DNA of 42,711 nucleotides. Source: a virus. Position numbers and translations under genes: made by a program. Below are positions 19,221 through 34,459 of this stretch, piece by piece. Under the pieces are notes generated by a model. It was not told the DNA's origin and did no database searches. It was given only the letters and a program-made list of their open reading frames with translations. Location of the stretch: positions 1 to 42,711 of IMG/VR virus record IMGVR_UViG_3300025520_000003, one strand, 5' to 3'. The number at the start of each line of letters is the position of its first letter. Positions within the stretch are counted from its first letter, which is position 1.

Positions 19221-19894
19221 TTCTTTCCTTCCCTGAAGGCATAGGGGTCAACTGCGGCAACAGGAGCAAGCTTGCTTGGTGTTCGAGACCGTAAAGCTTT
19301 CACACGAGTTTCCTGTTCACGTTCTTTTTCCATGGCGATTGCGTATGACTTTTTTTGTGCAGCTGAAAGTTCTTTAGAACTATCCTGCGGCTTGTCCGCT
19401 TCATGCTTAGATTTCTTTTCTTTTAATTTCTTTATATTAGATTTAATTATATTTAATTGGGGGGTTACTGTACTCAGACTGTGGTCAGACTGTTCATTTT
19501 CAAGCAAAAAAATAGTCATTTGATTATCTTCTTTATCTGTTGATAGTTGTATTTTACTCTGTAGCCAGTCTGGTAACTCATCAATGGCTTTTTGGATTCC
19601 CTTTTTAATACTAGGATTTAGACGTTGATGTTTAATAAAGTTCGTTAAAACAAGCCAATTTCGCTCAAAATACATACGCCCATCGTTCGTAAATTTCTCC
19701 AAAGTTGCTTCAATAAATTGCTTATCCAGGTCAGTATCAAAAGCTACTTCACGTATAGATATTTCGTAAATTCCAGCCAAAGTTGTTCTTGGATTTGTAA
19801 GGAAATAAATGAACAGCAATTTTTCTTGCGGATTAAGCTCGATAATATACGAGTCTTTCCAAAAATTTACGTTGACAATTCGAGAACTAGCCAC
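19217..19894 (-). CDS. replication initiator / replisome organizer-like protein (winged-helix N-terminal domain)
   Basis: 225 aa with a GTG start. The N-terminal pattern (FWKDSYIIELNPQEKLLFIYFLTNPRTTLAGIYEISIREVAFDT...LEKF...G) is typical of phage replication-organizer N-terminal domains (from recall). The middle of the gene is AT-rich and repeat-rich. Confidence 0.5.
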   Translation of the reverse strand: MASSRIVNVNFWKDSYIIELNPQEKLLFIYFLTNPRTTLAGIYEISIREVAFDTDLDKQFIEATLEKFTNDGRMYFERNWLVLTNFIKHQRLNPSIKKGIQKAIDELPDWLQSKIQLSTDKEDNQMTIFLLENEQSDHSLSTVTPQLNIIKSNIKKLKEKKSKHEADKPQDSSKELSAAQKKSYAIAMEKEREQETRVKALRSRTPSKLAPVAAVDPYAFREGKK

Positions 19895-20210
19895 GAGGAT
19901 TTACCCAACCTTCCTTTTCTTTTTCTAAATTACATGGCTGACAACTTAACACGAGATTTGAATAATCATTAGTCCCACCTTTTGACAATGAAACTATATG
20001 GTCTACTTCAATATGTCTATAGCGATTAACCACGACACCAGCCTTTATTATTTGATAGTCTTCATAAAACTTTTCTCTACAGTAGAAGCACCTGCCCATC
20101 TGTAAAACAAATTGCTTTTCTTTGTGGCGCTTGAATCTGAGTGTCTTTTGCATAGAGCCAAACTGAGACCTTAAAACACTAAGCTCTAGTGGACTCACTG
20201 TGTATATCAT
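19887..20210 (-). CDS. HNH endonuclease
   Basis: 107 aa with CFYC...EVDHIVSLSKGGTNDYSNLVLSCQPCN, a CxxC/H-N-H/CxxC zinc-finger nuclease signature. Confidence 0.85.
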   Translation of the reverse strand: MIYTVSPLELSVLRSQFGSMQKTLRFKRHKEKQFVLQMGRCFYCREKFYEDYQIIKAGVVVNRYRHIEVDHIVSLSKGGTNDYSNLVLSCQPCNLEKEKEGWVNPRG

Positions 20211-20867: not shown

Positions 20868-20898
20868 AAAAAAGACCCTTAGCGCTGGGTCTTTTTTT
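20868..20898. terminator. bidirectional rho-independent terminator
   Basis: AAAAAAGACCC-ttagcgct-GGGTCTTTTTTT. T-runs follow the stem on both strands. It closes both the tRNA array (minus) and the 52-aa ORF (plus). Confidence 0.8.
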
Positions 20899-20941
20899 CA
20901 TTTACGAAAGTGGTTGTGGCAACCACCAAGATAATATCACA

Positions 20942-21018
20942 TGGTAGCTGGGGAGGGAATTGCACCCACGTAGACTGGCTTATGAGACCAGCTGGAGAAA
21001 CTAACACTCCACCCTGCT
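20942..21018 (-). tRNA. tRNA-Met(CAT)-like: atypical tRNA-like gene, anticodon CAT (Met/fMet/Ile2)
   Basis: 77 nt with an encoded CCA. The anticodon arm (CTGGT-CTCATAA-GCCAG) is clean. The acceptor stem has an A-A mismatch, the T stem a T-T mismatch, the T loop reads TGCAATT, and the D loop lacks GG. Confidence 0.45.
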
Positions 21019-21033
21019 GAATTAATAATATCA

Positions 21034-21108
21034 TGGTACACACGCAGGGACTCGAACCCCGATTGCTAGAGCCAAAATCTAGTGTCCTACCAGTTAGACG
21101 ACACGTGT
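21034..21108 (-). tRNA. tRNA-Gln(TTG): tRNA-Gln (anticodon TTG)
   Basis: Hand-folded 75-nt cloverleaf. The acceptor stem is ACACGTG/CGTGTGT, the D loop AACTGGTA, the anticodon loop TTTTGGC, the T loop TTCGAGT, and CCA is encoded. Confidence 0.85.
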
Positions 21109-21111
21109 ATG

Positions 21112-21186
21112 TGGCGACCCCACGGGGAATCGAACCCCGACCCACTCGCAGACAACGAGACATACTAGCCGTTATACTATGAGGTC
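21112..21186 (-). tRNA. tRNA-Asp(GTC): tRNA-Asp (anticodon GTC)
   Basis: 75-nt cloverleaf. The acceptor stem is GACCTCA/TGGGGTC, the anticodon loop TTGTCTG (T at position 37, 27:43 T-T), the T loop TTCGATT, and CCA is encoded. Confidence 0.75.
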
Positions 21187-21189
21187 ATT

Positions 21190-21264
21190 TGGCATAGGTT
21201 GAAAGACTCGAACTTTCTCTAACGGTTTTGGAGACCGCCGTGCTACCATTAACACTAAACCCAC
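21190..21264 (-). tRNA. tRNA-Trp(CCA): tRNA-Trp (anticodon CCA)
   Basis: 75-nt cloverleaf. The acceptor stem is GTGGGTT/AACCTAT (with G-U pairs), the anticodon arm GCGGT-CTCCAAA-ACCGT, the T arm GAAAG-TTCGAGT-CTTTC, and CCA is encoded. Confidence 0.85.
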
Positions 21265-21267
21265 ACA

Positions 21268-21342
21268 TGGCCCTAACGGGTGGACTCGAACCACCAACCC
21301 TTCGATTAACAATCGAACGCTCTACCGTTGAGCTACATTAGG
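21268..21342 (-). tRNA. tRNA-Asn(GTT): tRNA-Asn (anticodon GTT)
   Basis: 75-nt cloverleaf. The acceptor stem is CCTAATG/CGTTAGG, the D arm GCTC-AACGGTA-GAGC, the anticodon arm TTCGA-TTGTTAA-TCGAA, the T arm GGTGG-TTCGAGT-CCACC, and CCA is encoded. Confidence 0.9.
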
Positions 21343-21347
21343 ATATT

Positions 21348-21422
21348 TGGTCAGGATAGAAGGTGCTGCCCCCTCTGCCTCTCGCTCCCAGGGCGAGCGC
21401 TCTGCTGATGAGCTATATCCTG
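21348..21422 (-). tRNA. tRNA-Pro(TGG)-like: atypical tRNA-like gene, anticodon TGG (Pro)
   Basis: 75 nt with a perfect acceptor stem (CAGGATA/TATCCTG) and good D and anticodon stems. The anticodon loop is CCTGGGA (C at position 33), the T loop reads GGCAGCA, the D loop (ATCAGCA) lacks GG, and CCA is encoded. Confidence 0.45.
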
Positions 21423-21432
21423 AAATTAAAAT

Positions 21433-21450
21433 AAGACCCGTCGGGGTCTT
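21433..21450 (-). terminator. 7-bp GC-rich hairpin with a tetraloop, 10 nt upstream of the first tRNA (terminator or processing signal)
   Basis: AAGACCC-gtcg-GGGTCTT. The minus strand continues ATTTTAATTT. Confidence 0.45.
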
Positions 21451-30943: not shown

Positions 30944-31048
30944 ATGCTACGTGCAATGGACGAAGACGACCTGATGGACGAACGAATGCGTGAGCAAGAA
31001 GAAAGCGAACGCCAATATCAAGAATCAATCCTAAACGAGAATCAATAA
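30944..31048 (+). CDS. small acidic ORF (34 aa)
   Basis: Hand translation gives MLRAMDEDDLMDERMREQEESERQYQESILNENQ. It has a GAGGAA SD and a TAATG overlap with recT. Confidence 0.35.
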   Translation: MLRAMDEDDLMDERMREQEESERQYQESILNENQ

Positions 31049-31914
31049 TGTCAAACCTACCATCTAAAATCACCATCAAAGAATACATCTCAGCACCAGC
31101 CGTTCAAAAGAAAATGAACGAAATGCTTGTCGATAAAGATACTATCCGTAACTTTACCACCAGTCTTATCTCTATCTCTGGTCAGGACGCACTCTTGGCT
31201 GAAGCAGAGCCTCGTTCACTATTCAATGCAGCACTCGAAGCTGCCAGCATGAACCTCCCAATCTCTAAGAGCCTTGGGTTCGCTCACATCATCGGCTACA
31301 AGAACAACAAAAAGGGTGGCGTTGTTGAAGCGCAGTTCCAAATGGGCGCACGTGGCTTTAAGGAGCTTGCCCAACGAACTGGCCGCTACACCATCATTAA
31401 CGAAACTGAAGTCAAAGAAGGTGAGGTCAAGAGCCGAAACCGTCTGACTGGTGAAGTCGAGTTTGCTTTCATCGAAGATGATGTTGAACGTGGCAATGCC
31501 AAGACCATTGGATATGTTTCATTCTTCCGACTCGACAATGGCTATGAGTCAACCCTCTACTGGACAAATGAACAGATTGAAGCTCACGCTCGTAAATACT
31601 CTCAATCATTCAAATCTGGCTACGGGCCTTGGAAAGATAACTTTGACGCAATGGCACTGAAGACCGTCATGAAGCGCAACATCAAAAACAACGGGCCACT
31701 TGATATTAACTTGCAACGAGCGCTTGACGTTGACCAGGCGATTATCCGTGACGACAAAATTGACTACATCGACGGCAATGACCTACTGGCTAATGAGGAA
31801 GCCACAGACGTTGAGGAAGACGCTATCCTTGCAGCCCAAGAAGAAGCGGCTGAACTCGAAAAGAACACCGACAAAACAACTGGCGAAATCAAAGACACCA
31901 AGAAAGGTAAGTAA
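31048..31914 (+). CDS. recT: RecT-family single-strand annealing recombinase
   Basis: 288 aa with the core (AQFQMGARGFKELAQRTGRY...GYVSFFRLDNGYE...). It is adjacent to the YqaJ exonuclease gene. Confidence 0.8.
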   Translation: MSNLPSKITIKEYISAPAVQKKMNEMLVDKDTIRNFTTSLISISGQDALLAEAEPRSLFNAALEAASMNLPISKSLGFAHIIGYKNNKKGGVVEAQFQMGARGFKELAQRTGRYTIINETEVKEGEVKSRNRLTGEVEFAFIEDDVERGNAKTIGYVSFFRLDNGYESTLYWTNEQIEAHARKYSQSFKSGYGPWKDNFDAMALKTVMKRNIKNNGPLDINLQRALDVDQAIIRDDKIDYIDGNDLLANEEATDVEEDAILAAQEEAAELEKNTDKTTGEIKDTKKGK

Positions 31915-32701: not shown

Positions 32702-32909
32702 CACCTACGGTCTCAAGAAGTACCTCGATGGCACTGCTTGGAAGCACAATAACAATGACTACTCAGACCTGCTGCGTATGCTCAAAGAGAATAAGAAAGA
32801 CCCTAAGCGGTTTCCTATTATGGAAATCGGCAGGCACTTCAACGTAGACCGCCGCACCGTTACCAACTGGCTAGAATTACTTAAAAAGGAGAACCCTAAT
32901 GCCCGATAA
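32679..32909 (+). CDS. helix-turn-helix DNA-binding protein
   Basis: 76 aa with an HTH segment (IMEIGRHFNVDRRTVTNWL) and a GGAGGG SD. Confidence 0.6.
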   Translation: MTDKRSISTYGLKKYLDGTAWKHNNNDYSDLLRMLKENKKDPKRFPIMEIGRHFNVDRRTVTNWLELLKKENPNAR

Positions 32910-33864
32910 AAAACCGCCTGTCGATGTATTTGAATACACCAACAAGCTCGATAGCGTAAAGAAAGAGCTGCACGTTGAACTGTTCCTGTTTAATAAGAAC
33001 TTCACCCCATATGCTACTCGCATTTCAGACGTAGTGTCAGAGCAAATTAAAACCCTCTTTGTATCTGAGTTCATTAATGAAATTCAGATTGGCGCTGGTA
33101 CTGGTTTGAGCGTCCGTGACATTGACTTTCAGAGCGACAATACGAATGTATTGGTGCGTGAAGATTTATCCAAAGTCCATCATGCAAATAACCTTGTTCA
33201 CTTTATCGAGAATGACCGTGACGACATCGTTTACTTCTCAGAAGCCGAACATGAGTTTAGGCGCATGAAAGGACTTATGGTGCGTGTTACACATGCAACC
33301 GACCGAGACCTCAAGTTTTATGTTGTACGCATGCTAGAAGCGTCAAAGGTGGTCACAGAGAATGGTTGGCAAGTGGCCGATGATTTGATTGACGTACTTC
33401 AGCCTCCAGTAGCTTTTAAGTTCCCGACCGACAACCAAACCGTCATCATCGGTGATGACATTTTCACCTTCAACCAAAGCAAGTTTGAGAAGACATTTAA
33501 CTACGATTACGTTCGTCTGATTCAGGCCGATAACAAGGCCAAGGATTTCGTAAAGAAGTTTAAGATTTCAGTTGCCAGCGATGTAGGCAACGACCTGGGT
33601 AACATCTTGAGAGAGAACACCAGCCTGCTCAACAAGTTCCTAAAGACCGACATCGAATTAATGAACCAAGAAACCGTTATCGAGCTGGCAGACACCATGC
33701 AGCTTGAGCTGATGACCGACGACCAAGGCGCAATTATCATCTTAGATAAGCAAGATTTGAGCGTCCTACTCGACATCATGAACGACAATTACTTCGAGAG
33801 TCCAGCAACGGGTAATCACTACGTCGCTAAAACTAAGAAAGCCATTGTGGTGGCGGAAGGGTAA
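32899..33864 (+). CDS. hypothetical protein, possibly DUF4868 (KwaB-like); unverified
   Basis: 321 aa. Only the size and general sequence character recall DUF4868. I can cite no diagnostic motif. Confidence 0.3.
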   Translation: MPDKKPPVDVFEYTNKLDSVKKELHVELFLFNKNFTPYATRISDVVSEQIKTLFVSEFINEIQIGAGTGLSVRDIDFQSDNTNVLVREDLSKVHHANNLVHFIENDRDDIVYFSEAEHEFRRMKGLMVRVTHATDRDLKFYVVRMLEASKVVTENGWQVADDLIDVLQPPVAFKFPTDNQTVIIGDDIFTFNQSKFEKTFNYDYVRLIQADNKAKDFVKKFKISVASDVGNDLGNILRENTSLLNKFLKTDIELMNQETVIELADTMQLELMTDDQGAIIILDKQDLSVLLDIMNDNYFESPATGNHYVAKTKKAIVVAEG

Positions 33865-33865
33865 T

Positions 33866-34459
33866 ATGAACGACAAGCAATATCCACTATCCTGGCCTCC
33901 AGGCTGGAGACGGACAGATGAACCAGACAGTTCACGATTTGGTAATGTCTCTATCAGCCGAGAGTCTGATGAGGTTGTTCACCAGCTTGAGATGATGGGT
34001 GCAACCAACATCATCATCAGTAGCAACATGCGCTACCGTAATGATGGAATCCCGTATGCAAACCAGGGCTACATTGAAGATAAAGGCGTTGCAGTCTACT
34101 TTAACCTCAACGGTGAGCAGCAATGTATTCCCTGTGACAAGTGGAACAGCCTTGGAGATAATCTTCGTGCCATCAACAAGACGGTAGAGGCTCTCCGTGG
34201 CATTGAACGATGGGGCGCTAAGGAAATGGTCAACGCAGCCTTTAAGGGCTTCAGGGCGCTTCCTGAGACTATCATCATGGGTGAACACACCTCACGACTA
34301 TGGCATGATGTCCTGCAGGTATCGCCAACTGCCGACTACGACATCGTTCAGTCAGCGTACAAGCGCATGCTTCACAAGAGCCACCCCGACACTGGTGGTA
34401 GCGACTTCGCCTTCCAGGAGGTTCAGACAGCATGGAAGCAATACAAGGAGATGAATTAA
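33866..34459 (+). CDS. J-domain (DnaJ-like, HPD motif) protein with a novel N-terminal domain
   Basis: The C-terminus reads WHDVLQVSPTADYDIVQSAYKRMLHKSHPDTGGSDFAFQEVQTAWKQY. I prefer the start at MNDKQ (33866), which has a GGAAGGG SD. Confidence 0.75.
   Translation: MNDKQYPLSWPPGWRRTDEPDSSRFGNVSISRESDEVVHQLEMMGATNIIISSNMRYRNDGIPYANQGYIEDKGVAVYFNLNGEQQCIPCDKWNSLGDNLRAINKTVEALRGIERWGAKEMVNAAFKGFRALPETIIMGEHTSRLWHDVLQVSPTADYDIVQSAYKRMLHKSHPDTGGSDFAFQEVQTAWKQYKEMN

What the first reader, a model, noticed from the sequence alone, without database searches (positions are those of the whole stretch)
20942..21422. Six-gene tRNA array, all with encoded CCA; the first and last members lack canonical D-loop and T-loop elbow nucleotides
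Four members fold as standard cloverleaves: Asn-GTT, Trp-CCA, Asp-GTC and Gln-TTG. The flanking members (Pro-TGG-like at 21348-21422 and Met-CAT-like at 20942-21018) keep good acceptor and anticodon arms. Both lack the D-loop GG, and both replace the T-loop TTC with GGCAGCA and TGCAATT respectively. The Pro-like member has C instead of the near-universal U33, and the Asp tRNA has T at position 37. Phage tRNAs with altered anticodon loops have been proposed to escape host anticodon nucleases. The two aberrant members could also be decoys, processing signals or pseudogenes.
Basis: partly seen in the sequence, partly recalled or inferred. Interest (0 to 1): 0.6.

Follow-up and report, generated by a model that had tools for sequence, protein, structure and literature searches.

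The report
Phage tRNA operon with alternative-elbow tRNAs
A small phage carries six tRNA genes, and the two that look defective share a recurring alternative way of building the tRNA "elbow" (A18 with G55 instead of G18 with U55) that I also found in hundreds of tRNAs from other phages and from bacterial tRNA arrays, so they are probably working tRNAs of an overlooked design rather than junk.

Summary
Six tRNA-like genes with encoded CCA lie head to tail on the minus strand (21422-20942) of a complete 42.6-kb siphophage genome. Four are ordinary (Asn, Trp, Asp, Gln). The first (Pro-UGG) and last (Met-CAU-like) lack D-loop GG and T-loop UUC.

They are not random wrecks. Both keep G19 and C56, and both have the same paired change: A18 in the D-loop with G55 in the T-loop. 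In 885 distinct tRNAs from viral contigs, G55 goes with AG/no-GG in 16 of 17 cases and U55 with GG in 847 (p=3e-30). Selecting by an A18 D-arm alone gave G55 in 30 of 30 viral and 51 of 53 cellular tRNAs.

The Pro-like gene has 21/21 stem pairs and the Pro identity set. Its GGCAG T-loop recurs in two other viral-contig tRNAs. The Met-like gene belongs to a large family of CAU tRNAs on phage and viral contigs, with G55/A18 members in phage Mx1 and 13 viral contigs. C33 and U37 (Asp) also recur in other tRNAs from viral contigs. Long arrays of such tRNAs occur in Verrucomicrobiota.

Expression, charging and the selective reason are untested, and the host is unknown. I found no paper describing this elbow. 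Verdict: probably functional variant-elbow tRNAs; pseudogene or decoy readings are less likely.

The parts
21433..21450 (.). G+C-rich hairpin followed by a T-run on either strand, 10 nt upstream of the first tRNA. It is terminator-like, probably ends the upstream glycosyltransferase gene, and must be read through or processed for the array to be made.
   Evidence: A hairpin plus AT-rich tail also lies directly upstream of the first tRNA in the related contig L014. No sigma-70-like promoter was found between the hairpin and the tRNA.
21348..21422 (-). tRNA-Pro(UGG), alternative-elbow type: D-loop AUCAGCA (A18-G19), T-loop GGCAGCA (G54-G55-C56-A57-G58), anticodon loop CCUGGGA (C33), C1-G72, A73, encoded CCA.
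   Evidence: Rfam 40.1 bits. 21/21 stem pairs, with 54 compensatory changes against 8 homologues. Same T-loop type in L341 and L393. ARAGORN misses it.
21268..21342 (-). tRNA-Asn(GUU), canonical, encoded CCA.
   Evidence: Rfam 69.9 bits; ARAGORN.
21190..21264 (-). tRNA-Trp(CCA), canonical, encoded CCA.
   Evidence: Rfam 54.4 bits; ARAGORN.
21112..21186 (-). tRNA-Asp(GUC) with canonical elbow but anticodon loop UUGUCUG (U37, G38), a U27xU43 mismatch, and encoded CCA.
   Evidence: Rfam 47.1 bits. U37 recurs in five other tRNA-Asp genes on viral contigs. The identical loop occurs in the verrucomicrobial array tRNA-Asp.
21034..21108 (-). tRNA-Gln(UUG), canonical elbow, loop UUUUGGC, encoded CCA.
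   Evidence: Rfam 56.7 bits; ARAGORN.
21019..21033 (-). 15-nt AT-rich spacer (TGATATTATTAATTC). Apart from its last base it is identical to the trailer after tRNA-Gln in L014, and it is partly repeated (TGATATTAT) after the Met-like gene. This suggests the Met-like gene was added behind an older array end.
   Evidence: The 17-mer CCATGATATTATTAATT otherwise gave only chance hits in viral contigs.
20942..21018 (-). tRNA-Met(CAU)-like gene, alternative-elbow type: D-loop UGUUAGUUU (A18-G19), T-loop UGCAAUU (U54-G55-C56-A57-A58), A1-U72, A73, encoded CCA, with mismatches A4xA69 and U50xU64.
   Evidence: Rfam 29.6 bits. ARAGORN calls tRNA-Met. Member of the phage CAU family, with G55/A18 relatives in phage Mx1 and 13 viral contigs.
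20868..20897 (-). Intrinsic-terminator-like hairpin with a T-run; the likely 3' end of the tRNA transcript.
19887..20210 (-). HNH endonuclease gene about 730 bp downstream of the array; a possible homing function that moves the cassette.
   Evidence: Pfam HNH PF01844, E=4e-12. Homing endonucleases beside tRNA arrays are reported in PMC8421152.

Best explanation
This is a six-gene tRNA operon on the minus strand of a complete 42.6-kb siphophage genome. It is bounded by terminator-like hairpins and made as one precursor that is cut into CCA-ready tRNAs.

All six are most likely real tRNAs. The first (Pro-UGG) and last (Met-CAU type) use an alternative elbow. The outer G19-C56 pair, the flat surface that RNase P, the ribosome and other partners stack on, is kept. 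The inner G18-U55 contact is replaced by A18-G55. In the Pro tRNA, U54-A58 is also replaced by G54-G58.

Shown here: the sequence features; their covariation in both directions across many isoacceptors and lineages; conservation of the cloverleaf through compensatory changes; retention of Pro identity nucleotides.

Inferred: that A18 and G55 touch each other as G18 and pseudouridine-55 do; that the RNAs are expressed, processed, charged and used in translation.

Further inferred, and weaker: the variant elbow matters because it removes the substrates of the host enzymes that modify G18, U54 and U55, or the target of some elbow- or T-loop-directed nuclease. That would suit tRNAs that travel between hosts.
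For: 1. Both odd members share A18-G19 with G55-C56.

2. Forward test: among 885 distinct ARAGORN tRNAs from fetched viral loci, U55+GG 847, G55+AG-without-GG 16, G55+GG 1, U55+AG 3; Fisher p=2.8e-30. The G55/AG type occurs in Met, His, Ile, Phe, Pro, Leu and a CUA suppressor.

3. Reverse test: hits chosen only by the D-arm GCUC-A..CAGCR-GAGC gave 30 well-formed tRNAs in viral contigs, all with G55, and 53 in cellular genomes, 51 with G55.

4. In the CAU family tree with the loops masked, G55 and AG change together in 9 of 9 contrasts on the best tree and 3 of 3 on well-supported branches.

5. The Pro-like gene has 21/21 stem pairs, C1-G72, A73 and G35-G36-G37. Eight homologues show 54 both-sided compensatory changes at 13 of 21 stem positions with one break. 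The GGCAG T-loop recurs in L341 (Pro-UGG, same variable loop AGGCA) and L393 (Ile-GAU).

6. The Met-like gene matches many annotated phage tRNA-Met genes. Relatives with the same elbow occur in Myxococcus phage Mx1 and 13 viral contigs.

7. Where position 56 is not C, the D-loop partner tends to stay complementary (U19-A56 in 10 cases, A19-U56 in 4, C19-G56 in 2).

8. The tymovirus tRNA-like element has D-loop CAGU and T-loop UGCAACU in the Rfam consensus. [quoted passage not shown]

9. Regular 3-5 nt spacing, encoded CCA on all six, and flanking terminator-like hairpins fit one operon.
Against: No expression, processing or aminoacylation data exist: no RNA run holds this DNA.

Rfam scores are low (40.1, and 29.6 against a threshold of 29), and ARAGORN misses the Pro-like gene.

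The Met-like gene has two stem mismatches and a weak D arm, and it is absent from the only related phage with an array (L014). It could therefore be a recent, poorly working addition.

RNAfold prefers a non-cloverleaf fold for the Pro-like sequence by 2.1 kcal/mol, although the canonical tRNA-Gln here also fails to give a cloverleaf as its minimum-energy fold.

The A18-G55 contact is inferred from covariation, not seen in a structure.

The samples used for the statistics were fetched with patterns and are not a census. Sequences within lineages are related, so the Fisher p overstates independence.

The proposed benefit (escape from host modification or nucleases) has no direct support.
Confidence: 0.65

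Rival explanations
1. One or both end members are pseudogenes: decaying copies of a tRNA-Pro and a tRNA-Met that ride along in the operon.
For: Low Rfam scores, and ARAGORN fails on the Pro-like gene. The Met-like gene has A4xA69 and U50xU64 mismatches and a 3-bp D stem. L014 has a canonical tRNA-Pro in the same first position and no Met-like gene. Most terminase relatives carry no tRNAs at all, so the cassette is dispensable. In the Anabaena array 3 of 26 genes are silent pseudogenes (PMC8421152).
Against: The Pro-like gene keeps 21 of 21 stem pairs while at least five near-invariant loop positions differ. Neutral decay would hit stems as well. The changes are the same co-ordinated ones seen in many intact tRNAs elsewhere. 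Identity nucleotides and CCA are intact. In my rough count of unpaired positions in ARAGORN's brackets (which also counts unpaired 1:72 ends), two per gene is common in the CAU family (29 of 87).
Confidence: 0.2
2. The two end members are tRNA-like RNAs that do not decode. They could be decoys that soak up a host anticodon nuclease or other tRNA-targeting defence, or structural caps that guide RNase P and 3' processing and protect the ends of the precursor.
For: They sit exactly at the 5' and 3' ends of the operon. Non-canonical elbow and C33 could weaken ribosome use while keeping the anticodon arm as bait. Tools score them poorly. Phage T4 has stable non-tRNA RNAs in its tRNA cluster (my recollection, not tested).
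Against: Both keep a 7-nt anticodon loop, a discriminator base, CCA and, for Pro, the full C1-G72/A73/G35-G36 set, which a decoy or cap would not need. The same elbow is used by whole sets of isoacceptors in arrays and sits at internal positions in other arrays, so it is a general tRNA design and not an end-cap device.
Confidence: 0.1
3. The Met-like unit is a remnant of an attachment site or of a recombination with a host tRNA gene, not a phage tRNA gene in its own right.
For: It follows a duplicated trailer motif (TGATATTAT), as if inserted. Temperate phages often carry the 3' part of a host tRNA.
Against: No integrase was seen among the proteins scanned, and the genome closes on itself as a separate 42.6-kb unit. 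The T-loop is non-canonical, unlike the bin's own tRNAs. The whole gene, not only a 3' part, matches the phage CAU family.
Confidence: 0.03

Closest known systems
Phage tRNA gene clusters (for example T4, T5 and mycobacteriophage tRNA sets), and the idea that phage tRNAs carry loop changes that escape host tRNA nucleases (van den Berg et al. 2023, PMC10264068)
   Same: Short co-oriented cluster of tRNA genes in a lytic-type phage genome, encoded CCA, and anticodon-loop peculiarities (C33 in Pro, U37 in Asp) relative to the bin's tRNAs.
   Different: That paper deals with anticodon loops only; its text has no mention of D-loop or T-loop. Here the notable change is at the elbow (A18/G55), and the host and its nucleases are unknown.
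[quoted passage not shown]
   Same: Supernumerary tRNA genes in tandem, often next to HNH or homing endonuclease genes, and reported in Verrucomicrobia among other phyla. The variant elbow of the window's two tRNAs dominates the verrucomicrobial arrays I fetched.
   Different: The window has six genes, not 20 or more, and lies in a phage. The one experimentally studied L-array (Anabaena pCC7120delta) is canonical in 23 of 24 ARAGORN-called members. The papers I read do not mention elbow variants.
Valine-accepting tRNA-like structures of tymoviruses (Rfam RF00233)
   Same: D-loop CAGU with T-loop UGCAACU in the family consensus, that is AG in the D-loop and G at the position equivalent to 55. 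This is the same combination as in the Met-like gene. A review reports that this RNA forms a tRNA-like D/T-loop association.
   Different: It is not a member: the score is 20.7 bits against a threshold of 40. The window's unit has a normal paired acceptor stem rather than a 3' pseudoknot, is DNA-phage encoded, and has a CAU rather than a valine anticodon.
Bacterial initiator tRNA-fMet
   Same: The CAU family to which the Met-like gene belongs often has the initiator-like acceptor stem (xGCGGGG...CCCCGCA-A-CCA) and U8-G9-G10-A11-G12 with A11-U24.
   Different: The window's copy has a paired A1-U72 and only two G-C pairs plus U31-G39 in the anticodon stem, so the defining initiator features are not met.
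Metazoan mitochondrial tRNAs with non-canonical elbows
   Same: They lack G18-G19 and the T-loop UUC, and they are still functional (review PMC4810234).
   Different: Those tRNAs have lost the elbow, and their partners co-evolved. Here the elbow is kept in a specific alternative form with G19-C56 intact, in a bacterial setting.

Membership tests
tRNA (Rfam RF00005) | Score at or above the curated gathering threshold (29 bits) | tested here: met
   Pro-like 40.1 bits; Met-like 29.6 bits, found only with the permissive filters on the short stretch; the other four 47-70 bits.
tRNA (Rfam RF00005) | Cloverleaf with 7/4/5/5-bp stems and a 7-nt anticodon loop | tested here: met
   Pro-like 21/21 pairs. 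The Met-like unit has two mismatches and a 3-bp D stem in ARAGORN's fold (or a 4-bp GGAG/CUCC stem in my own reading, with one nucleotide at the junction).
Canonical bacterial tRNA elbow | G18 and U55 (pseudouridine-55) contact | tested here: not met
   A18 and G55 in both odd members.
Canonical bacterial tRNA elbow | G19-C56 Watson-Crick pair | tested here: met
   G follows A in both D-loops, and C56 is present in both T-loops. The pairing itself is inferred.
Canonical bacterial tRNA elbow | U54-A58 reverse-Hoogsteen pair in the T-loop | tested here: inconclusive
   Kept in the Met-like unit (U54, A58). Replaced by G54 and G58 in the Pro-like unit. The same GGCAG loop recurs in L341 and L393.
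Alternative-elbow (A18/G55) tRNA class, as defined here | AG but no GG at D-loop positions 18-19, together with G55-C56 in a 7-nt T-loop | tested here: met
   Both members. Class defined.
Bacterial tRNA-Pro | C1-G72, A73, G35, G36 (ProRS identity set, established knowledge), with G37 for m1G37 | tested here: met
   All are present in the Pro-like gene and in its eight homologues. Charging was not testable.
Bacterial tRNA-Pro | U33 preceding the anticodon | tested here: not met
   C33. C33 is also present in 4 of 7 variant-elbow Pro(UGG) genes and in about 4% of the tRNAs sampled from viral contigs.
Bacterial initiator tRNA-fMet | Unpaired 1x72 and three consecutive G-C pairs (29-41, 30-40, 31-39) | tested here: not met
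   A1-U72 is paired. The anticodon stem has G29-C41, G30-C40 and U31-G39.
Tymovirus tRNA-like structure (RF00233) | Gathering score of 40 bits and a 3' pseudoknotted acceptor | tested here: not met
   20.7 bits, E=0.07; a normal acceptor stem.
L-array / tRNA array unit | Twenty or more tRNA genes at two or more per kb (PMC4758250) | tested here: not met
   Six genes in 481 bp. The density is met but the number is not.
Nuclease-escape phage tRNAs (PMC10264068) | Anticodon-loop differences from the host isoacceptor at nuclease recognition sites, and a host that carries the nuclease | not testable with these tools
   The loops differ from the bin's tRNAs for Pro, Asp, Asn and Gln and are the same for Trp and Met. 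But the contig is a separate circular unit with 46% GC against 36% for the bin, and no host link was found.

The most novel reading that the evidence does not exclude
A18-G55 is a second natural solution for the tRNA elbow. Companion variants are A54-U58, G54-G58 and complementary 19-56 swaps. It seems concentrated in tRNA sets that are extra to the housekeeping set: phage operons and long bacterial arrays, notably in Verrucomicrobiota. Under this reading it is selected because it changes how host factors that read G18, U54 and U55 treat these tRNAs. Those factors include the modification enzymes TrmH, TrmA and TruB, and possibly elbow- or T-loop-directed defence nucleases. The window's Pro and Met tRNAs would be two working examples.
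Probability: 0.3. Interest if true: 0.85.

Novelty: new variant of a known kind. Interest (0 to 1): 0.7.

Why it matters
G18, G19, pseudouridine-55 and C56 are treated as near-universal in cytoplasmic tRNAs, and gene finders lean on them. ARAGORN missed one of these genes and Rfam barely passed the other.

If the A18/G55 elbow works, three things follow:
- A class of phage and array tRNAs is being under-called or labelled as pseudogenes.
- There is a clean natural covariation with which to probe what the inner elbow contact is for.
- The question of why mobile tRNA sets differ from housekeeping ones becomes testable: does the variant escape host modification, quality control or tRNA-targeting immunity?

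For this phage, it would mean that all six genes, not four, count as its translational toolkit.

Tried and rejected
- **RNA evidence:** no RNA holder is listed for this DNA. The only other run held unrelated tRNA fragments and low-depth pieces of a near relative outside the array.
- **Relatives through the neighbouring 473-aa glycosyltransferase:** one hit (L001), with no tRNAs and no similarity past that gene.
- **Relatives through the terminase:** 80 viral and 80 metagenome loci. ARAGORN, run on 60 of them including all the closest, found an array only in L014.
- **Exact pattern from the Pro-like T arm:** no hit in viral contigs.
- **Conserved spacer as a probe:** only chance hits apart from L014's own contig.
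- **Tymovirus TLS membership:** rejected on score.
- **Assembly artefact:** rejected.
- **Prophage or attachment-site reading:** not supported. The contig ends overlap by 4,167 bp, giving a 42,584-bp circle, and no integrase turned up among the proteins scanned.
- **Host assignment:** the bin has 36% GC against 46% for the contig. The terminase was not found in 60 relatives of the bin or in 201 genomes of the verrucomicrobial phylum sample.
- **Published functional data:** the Anabaena L-array has one G55/AG member, tRNA-Glu(CUC). The paper's text does not say whether it is among the 23 charged tRNAs or the 3 silent ones, and no supplements are held.
- **Flanks of verrucomicrobial arrays:** ordinary metabolic genes and ORFans, nothing phage-like, so I cannot say those arrays are mobile.
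- **Literature:** searches for an A18/G55 elbow found nothing relevant. This covers only the held library.
- **Not done:** codon-usage comparison, because there is no credible host.
Full report
**1. What is there**

On the minus strand, from 21422 down to 20942, six tRNA-like units follow each other with 3-5 nt spacers. A 15-nt spacer precedes the last unit, and every unit ends in CCA.

The Rfam tRNA model scores them as follows, against a gathering score of 29:

| Unit | Bits |
|---|---|
| Asn | 69.9 |
| Gln | 56.7 |
| Trp | 54.4 |
| Asp | 47.1 |
| Pro-like | 40.1 |
| Met-like | 29.6 |

ARAGORN calls five of them. It never finds the Pro-like one, even at relaxed thresholds.

**2. Context**

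The window is most of contig C63 of a 132-contig bin. C63 has 46% GC against 35.8% for the bin. Its two ends are an identical 4,167-bp overlap, so it is a closed 42,584-bp unit. A public assembly of the likely source run gives the same circle at depth 93.

The genes are those of a tailed phage: portal, head protease, tape measure, endolysin, replisome organiser, RecT and ParB-like.

The array lies between a membrane glycosyltransferase gene and a non-coding region. Terminator-like hairpins bracket it at 21450-21433 and 20897-20868. An HNH endonuclease gene lies about 730 bp downstream.

The 32 other tRNAs ARAGORN finds in the bin are all canonical, and most lack an encoded CCA. I found no host link. 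The terminase is absent from 60 relatives of the bin and from 201 genomes of the verrucomicrobial sample.

**3. Relatives of the phage**

Among 160 loci fetched through the terminase, ARAGORN was run on 60, including all the closest, and only one, L014, has tRNAs.

- **L014's array:** Pro(UGG), Asn and Gln. Its tRNA-Pro is canonical (61 bits) and starts and ends like the window's (CAGG...UGACCA).
- **Shared spacer:** the 17 bases after tRNA-Gln are identical in both phages.
- **The Met-like gene:** the window's copy sits behind that spacer and is followed by a partial copy of it, as if added later.

**4. The key regularity**

Both odd members keep a G at the place of G19 and a C at 56. Both have A where G18 should be and G where U55 should be.

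| Unit | D-loop | T-loop |
|---|---|---|
| Pro-like | AUC-AG-CA | G-GC-AGCA |
| Met-like | UGUU-AG-UUU | U-GC-AAUU |

A review of the elbow (PMC4810234) describes the canonical geometry. G19-C56 is the exposed Watson-Crick pair. Residue 18 intercalates between 57 and 58. G18 makes a single hydrogen bond to pseudouridine-55. So the outer platform is kept and only the inner contact is changed.

**5. Is that chance? Forward test**

The Met-like gene matches many annotated phage tRNA-Met genes. One of these, unannotated in Myxococcus phage Mx1, has D-loop UUAGACA and T-loop UGCGAUU.

- A scan of viral contigs for the family's anticodon arm joined to a G55 T-loop gave 14 hits. All have AG and no GG in the D-loop.
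- The same scan with a U55 T-loop gave more than 120 hits, essentially all with GG.

ARAGORN run on every fetched viral locus gave 885 distinct tRNAs with a 7-nt T-loop:

| Position 55 | D-loop | Count |
|---|---|---|
| U55 | GG | 847 |
| G55 | AG, no GG | 16 |
| G55 | GG (also has AG) | 1 |
| U55 | AG | 3 |
| U55 | other | 8 |
| C55 | GG | 10 |

Fisher's exact test gives p=2.8e-30. The G55/AG tRNAs include neighbours that were not selected for in any way: His, Ile, Phe, Pro, Leu and a CUA suppressor.

**6. Reverse test**

I selected only by a D-arm with A18 (GCUC-A..CAGCR-GAGC).

- **Viral contigs:** 41 distinct hits, of which 30 form a proper cloverleaf. All 30 have G55. The T-loops are UGCAA 17, UGCGA 6, AGCAA 3, GGCAG 2, AGCAU 1 and AGCGA 1. 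They span at least 12 anticodons.
- **Cellular genomes:** 53 well-formed hits, 51 with G55.

**7. Independence**

In a tree of 87 CAU-family genes with the D-loops and T-loops removed, G55 and AG change together in 9 of 9 contrasts on the best tree. They do so in 3 of 3 contrasts that rest on well-supported branches. The tree is weak because it has only 62 columns.

The same pairing in unrelated isoacceptors adds further independent cases. The p-value above overstates independence, but the direction is uniform.

With a crude register for 7- and 8-nt D-loops, the 18/55 combinations are G/U 470, A/G 159 and G/G 47. The G/G figure includes register errors. Where 56 is not C, position 19 tends to stay complementary: U-A 10, A-U 4 and C-G 2.

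**8. The Pro-like gene in detail**

- It has 21 of 21 stem pairs, U8, A14, A21, G46, C1-G72, A73 and G35-G36-G37.
- Eight homologues were compared: L341, L358, L267, RpAliso's annotated tRNA-Pro(CGG), L014, and three from verrucomicrobial arrays. They differ from it by 54 both-sided compensatory changes at 13 of 21 stem positions, with one broken pair in all. All keep C1-G72 and A73.
- L341 is a Pro(UGG) with D-loop AAUCAGCA, the same variable loop AGGCA and T-loop GGCAGAA. L393 is an Ile(GAU) with T-loop GGCAGAG. So the window's strangest feature, G54 and G58, recurs.
- C33 is present in 4 of 7 variant-elbow Pro(UGG) genes, against 2 of 44 canonical-elbow tRNA-Pro genes in the sample.
- A gene drifting neutrally far enough to lose five near-invariant loop bases would not keep all 42 stem bases paired. 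That argument is my inference.

**9. The Met-like gene in detail**

- It shares the family's anticodon arm and an initiator-like 5' part (xGCxGGG-UG-GAG with A11-U24).
- It has a paired A1-U72 and lacks the three G-C pairs, so I do not file it as an initiator. Whether it is read as Met, fMet or, after lysidine formation, Ile cannot be told from sequence.
- It has two stem mismatches. In my rough count from ARAGORN's bracket strings that is within the family's range, but it makes this the weaker of the two.

**10. Other oddities**

- U37 in tRNA-Asp recurs in five other distinct tRNA-Asp genes on viral contigs.
- The identical loop UUGUCUG occurs in a tRNA-Asp that is conserved across many verrucomicrobial bins.
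- C33 is present in about 4% of the sampled tRNAs from viral contigs.

These are recurrent designs in tRNAs from viral contigs, in line with the anticodon-loop theme of PMC10264068. That paper does not discuss elbows.

**11. Beyond the window**

The cellular hits fall into conserved sets:

- **Bathyarchaeia:** tRNA-Thr(CGU).
- **DPANN archaea:** tRNA-Thr(CGU).
- **Chloroflexota:** tRNA-Val(CAC).
- **Verrucomicrobiota:** tRNA-Asp(GUC) and tRNA-Gln(UUG).

In Verrucomicrobiota, and in a few bins of other phyla, they sit in dense arrays of up to 15 tRNAs per 8 kb. These arrays cover most amino acids, and nearly every member has a non-canonical elbow. Over distinct tRNAs in those loci the counts are G55+AG 235, U55+GG 117, G55+GG 26 and G55+other 13.

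Three such genomes hold 55-67 tRNA hits, most of them high-scoring canonical ones elsewhere. The arrays therefore look like a second set.

Long, horizontally spread tRNA arrays are known and are reported in Verrucomicrobia (PMC8421152). I found no mention of their elbows. The studied Anabaena array is canonical in 23 of 24 ARAGORN-called genes. The exception, tRNA-Glu(CUC), has the G55/AG elbow, and its fate in the published charging assay is not stated in the text.

The flanks of the verrucomicrobial arrays are not phage-like.

**12. Precedent**

The Rfam consensus for tymovirus valine-accepting tRNA-like structures has D-loop CAGU and T-loop UGCAACU. [quoted passage not shown] This is a lead, not a test: I did not see the residue-level contacts.

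**13. Conclusion**

The array is a phage tRNA operon. The two end members are best read as working tRNAs with an alternative elbow (confidence about 0.65; higher for Pro than for Met). Pseudogene (0.2) and decoy or cap (0.1) readings remain open until RNA data exist.

Why the elbow differs is unknown. G55 cannot become pseudouridine, A18 cannot become Gm18, and G54 cannot become m5U. That follows from the enzymes' known substrates. Any link to host modification, quality control or defence is speculation.

I found no description of this covariation in the held literature. That does not prove there is none.

Noticed in passing
L434, L459, L446, L409, L441, L424, L458, L505, L452, L512, L437, L454, L403, L506 (Verrucomicrobiota); L465, L406, L485 (bins of other phyla): Dense arrays of up to 15 tRNA genes per 8 kb cover most amino acids, and nearly all members have non-canonical elbows: T-loops UGCRA, AGCGU or CGCGA with A18-G19, and also UGAAAAU, UGAGAAU or UGGAAAU with D-loops lacking G19. 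The genomes also hold a canonical set elsewhere. Flanking genes are ordinary or ORFans, not phage-like.
   Followed up: partly
L412, L422, L423, L427, L432, L451, L464, L481, L490, L499, L509, L510 (Bathyarchaeia and allies): A near-identical tRNA-Thr(CGU) with D-loop AGCCCAGCA and T-loop AGCAAAG (A18/G55, A54) is conserved across many archaeal species bins. It looks like a native gene rather than a mobile one.
   Followed up: no
window 21112-21186 and L207, L219, L286, L296, L318; L406-L519 (verrucomicrobial tRNA-Asp): A pyrimidine at position 37 (U37) recurs in tRNA-Asp(GUC) on viral contigs. The exact loop UUGUCUG of the window's tRNA-Asp is shared with the array-borne tRNA-Asp of Verrucomicrobiota. 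Two tRNA-Glu(UUC) genes on viral contigs also have U37.
   Followed up: partly
L522 (Nostoc/Anabaena PCC 7120 plasmid delta, about 52,006-52,083 of NC_003273): In the experimentally studied L-array, one member, tRNA-Glu(CUC), has D-loop AAAUAAGAUAA and T-loop UGCAACU (G55/AG). The other 23 ARAGORN-called members are canonical. The published acid-gel data should show whether it is charged.
   Followed up: partly
L226 (viral contig) and L458 (Verrucomicrobiales bin): A CUA-anticodon tRNA (amber suppressor type, called 'Pyl' by ARAGORN) has the A18/G55 elbow. A UUA-anticodon tRNA (ochre suppressor type) lies inside a variant-elbow array.
   Followed up: no
whole contig C63 (window plus flanks): The contig ends repeat 4,167 bp exactly, giving a 42,584-bp circle. 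It has 46% GC against 35.8% for the bin, which has 5.9% estimated contamination. The phage contig is probably mis-binned, so the bin should not be taken as its host.
   Followed up: yes
window 21019-21033 and 20933-20941; L014 5204-5218: The AT-rich trailer after tRNA-Gln is conserved between two phages that share only 59% terminase identity, and it is partly duplicated after the Met-like gene. It could be a processing site or a recombination scar.
   Followed up: partly
window 32899-33864 (+) and 33845-34459 (+): There is a weak, below-threshold Pfam match to the Kiwa protein KwaB (E=1e-4), next to a protein with a C-terminal DnaJ domain. RecT lies at 31048-31914.
   Followed up: no
L199 (Ruegeria phage RpAliso) 1508-1583: The annotated tRNA-Pro(CGG) has a canonical D-loop but T-loop AUCGUGA, that is A54 and U58 swapped relative to U54-A58. 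The same A54...U58 swap is common in the G55 class (AGCGU).
   Followed up: no
viral loci generally: Ten distinct tRNAs have C55 (T-loop UCCGA) and keep GG in the D-loop. This is a second recurrent departure from U55 that does not covary with position 18.
   Followed up: no
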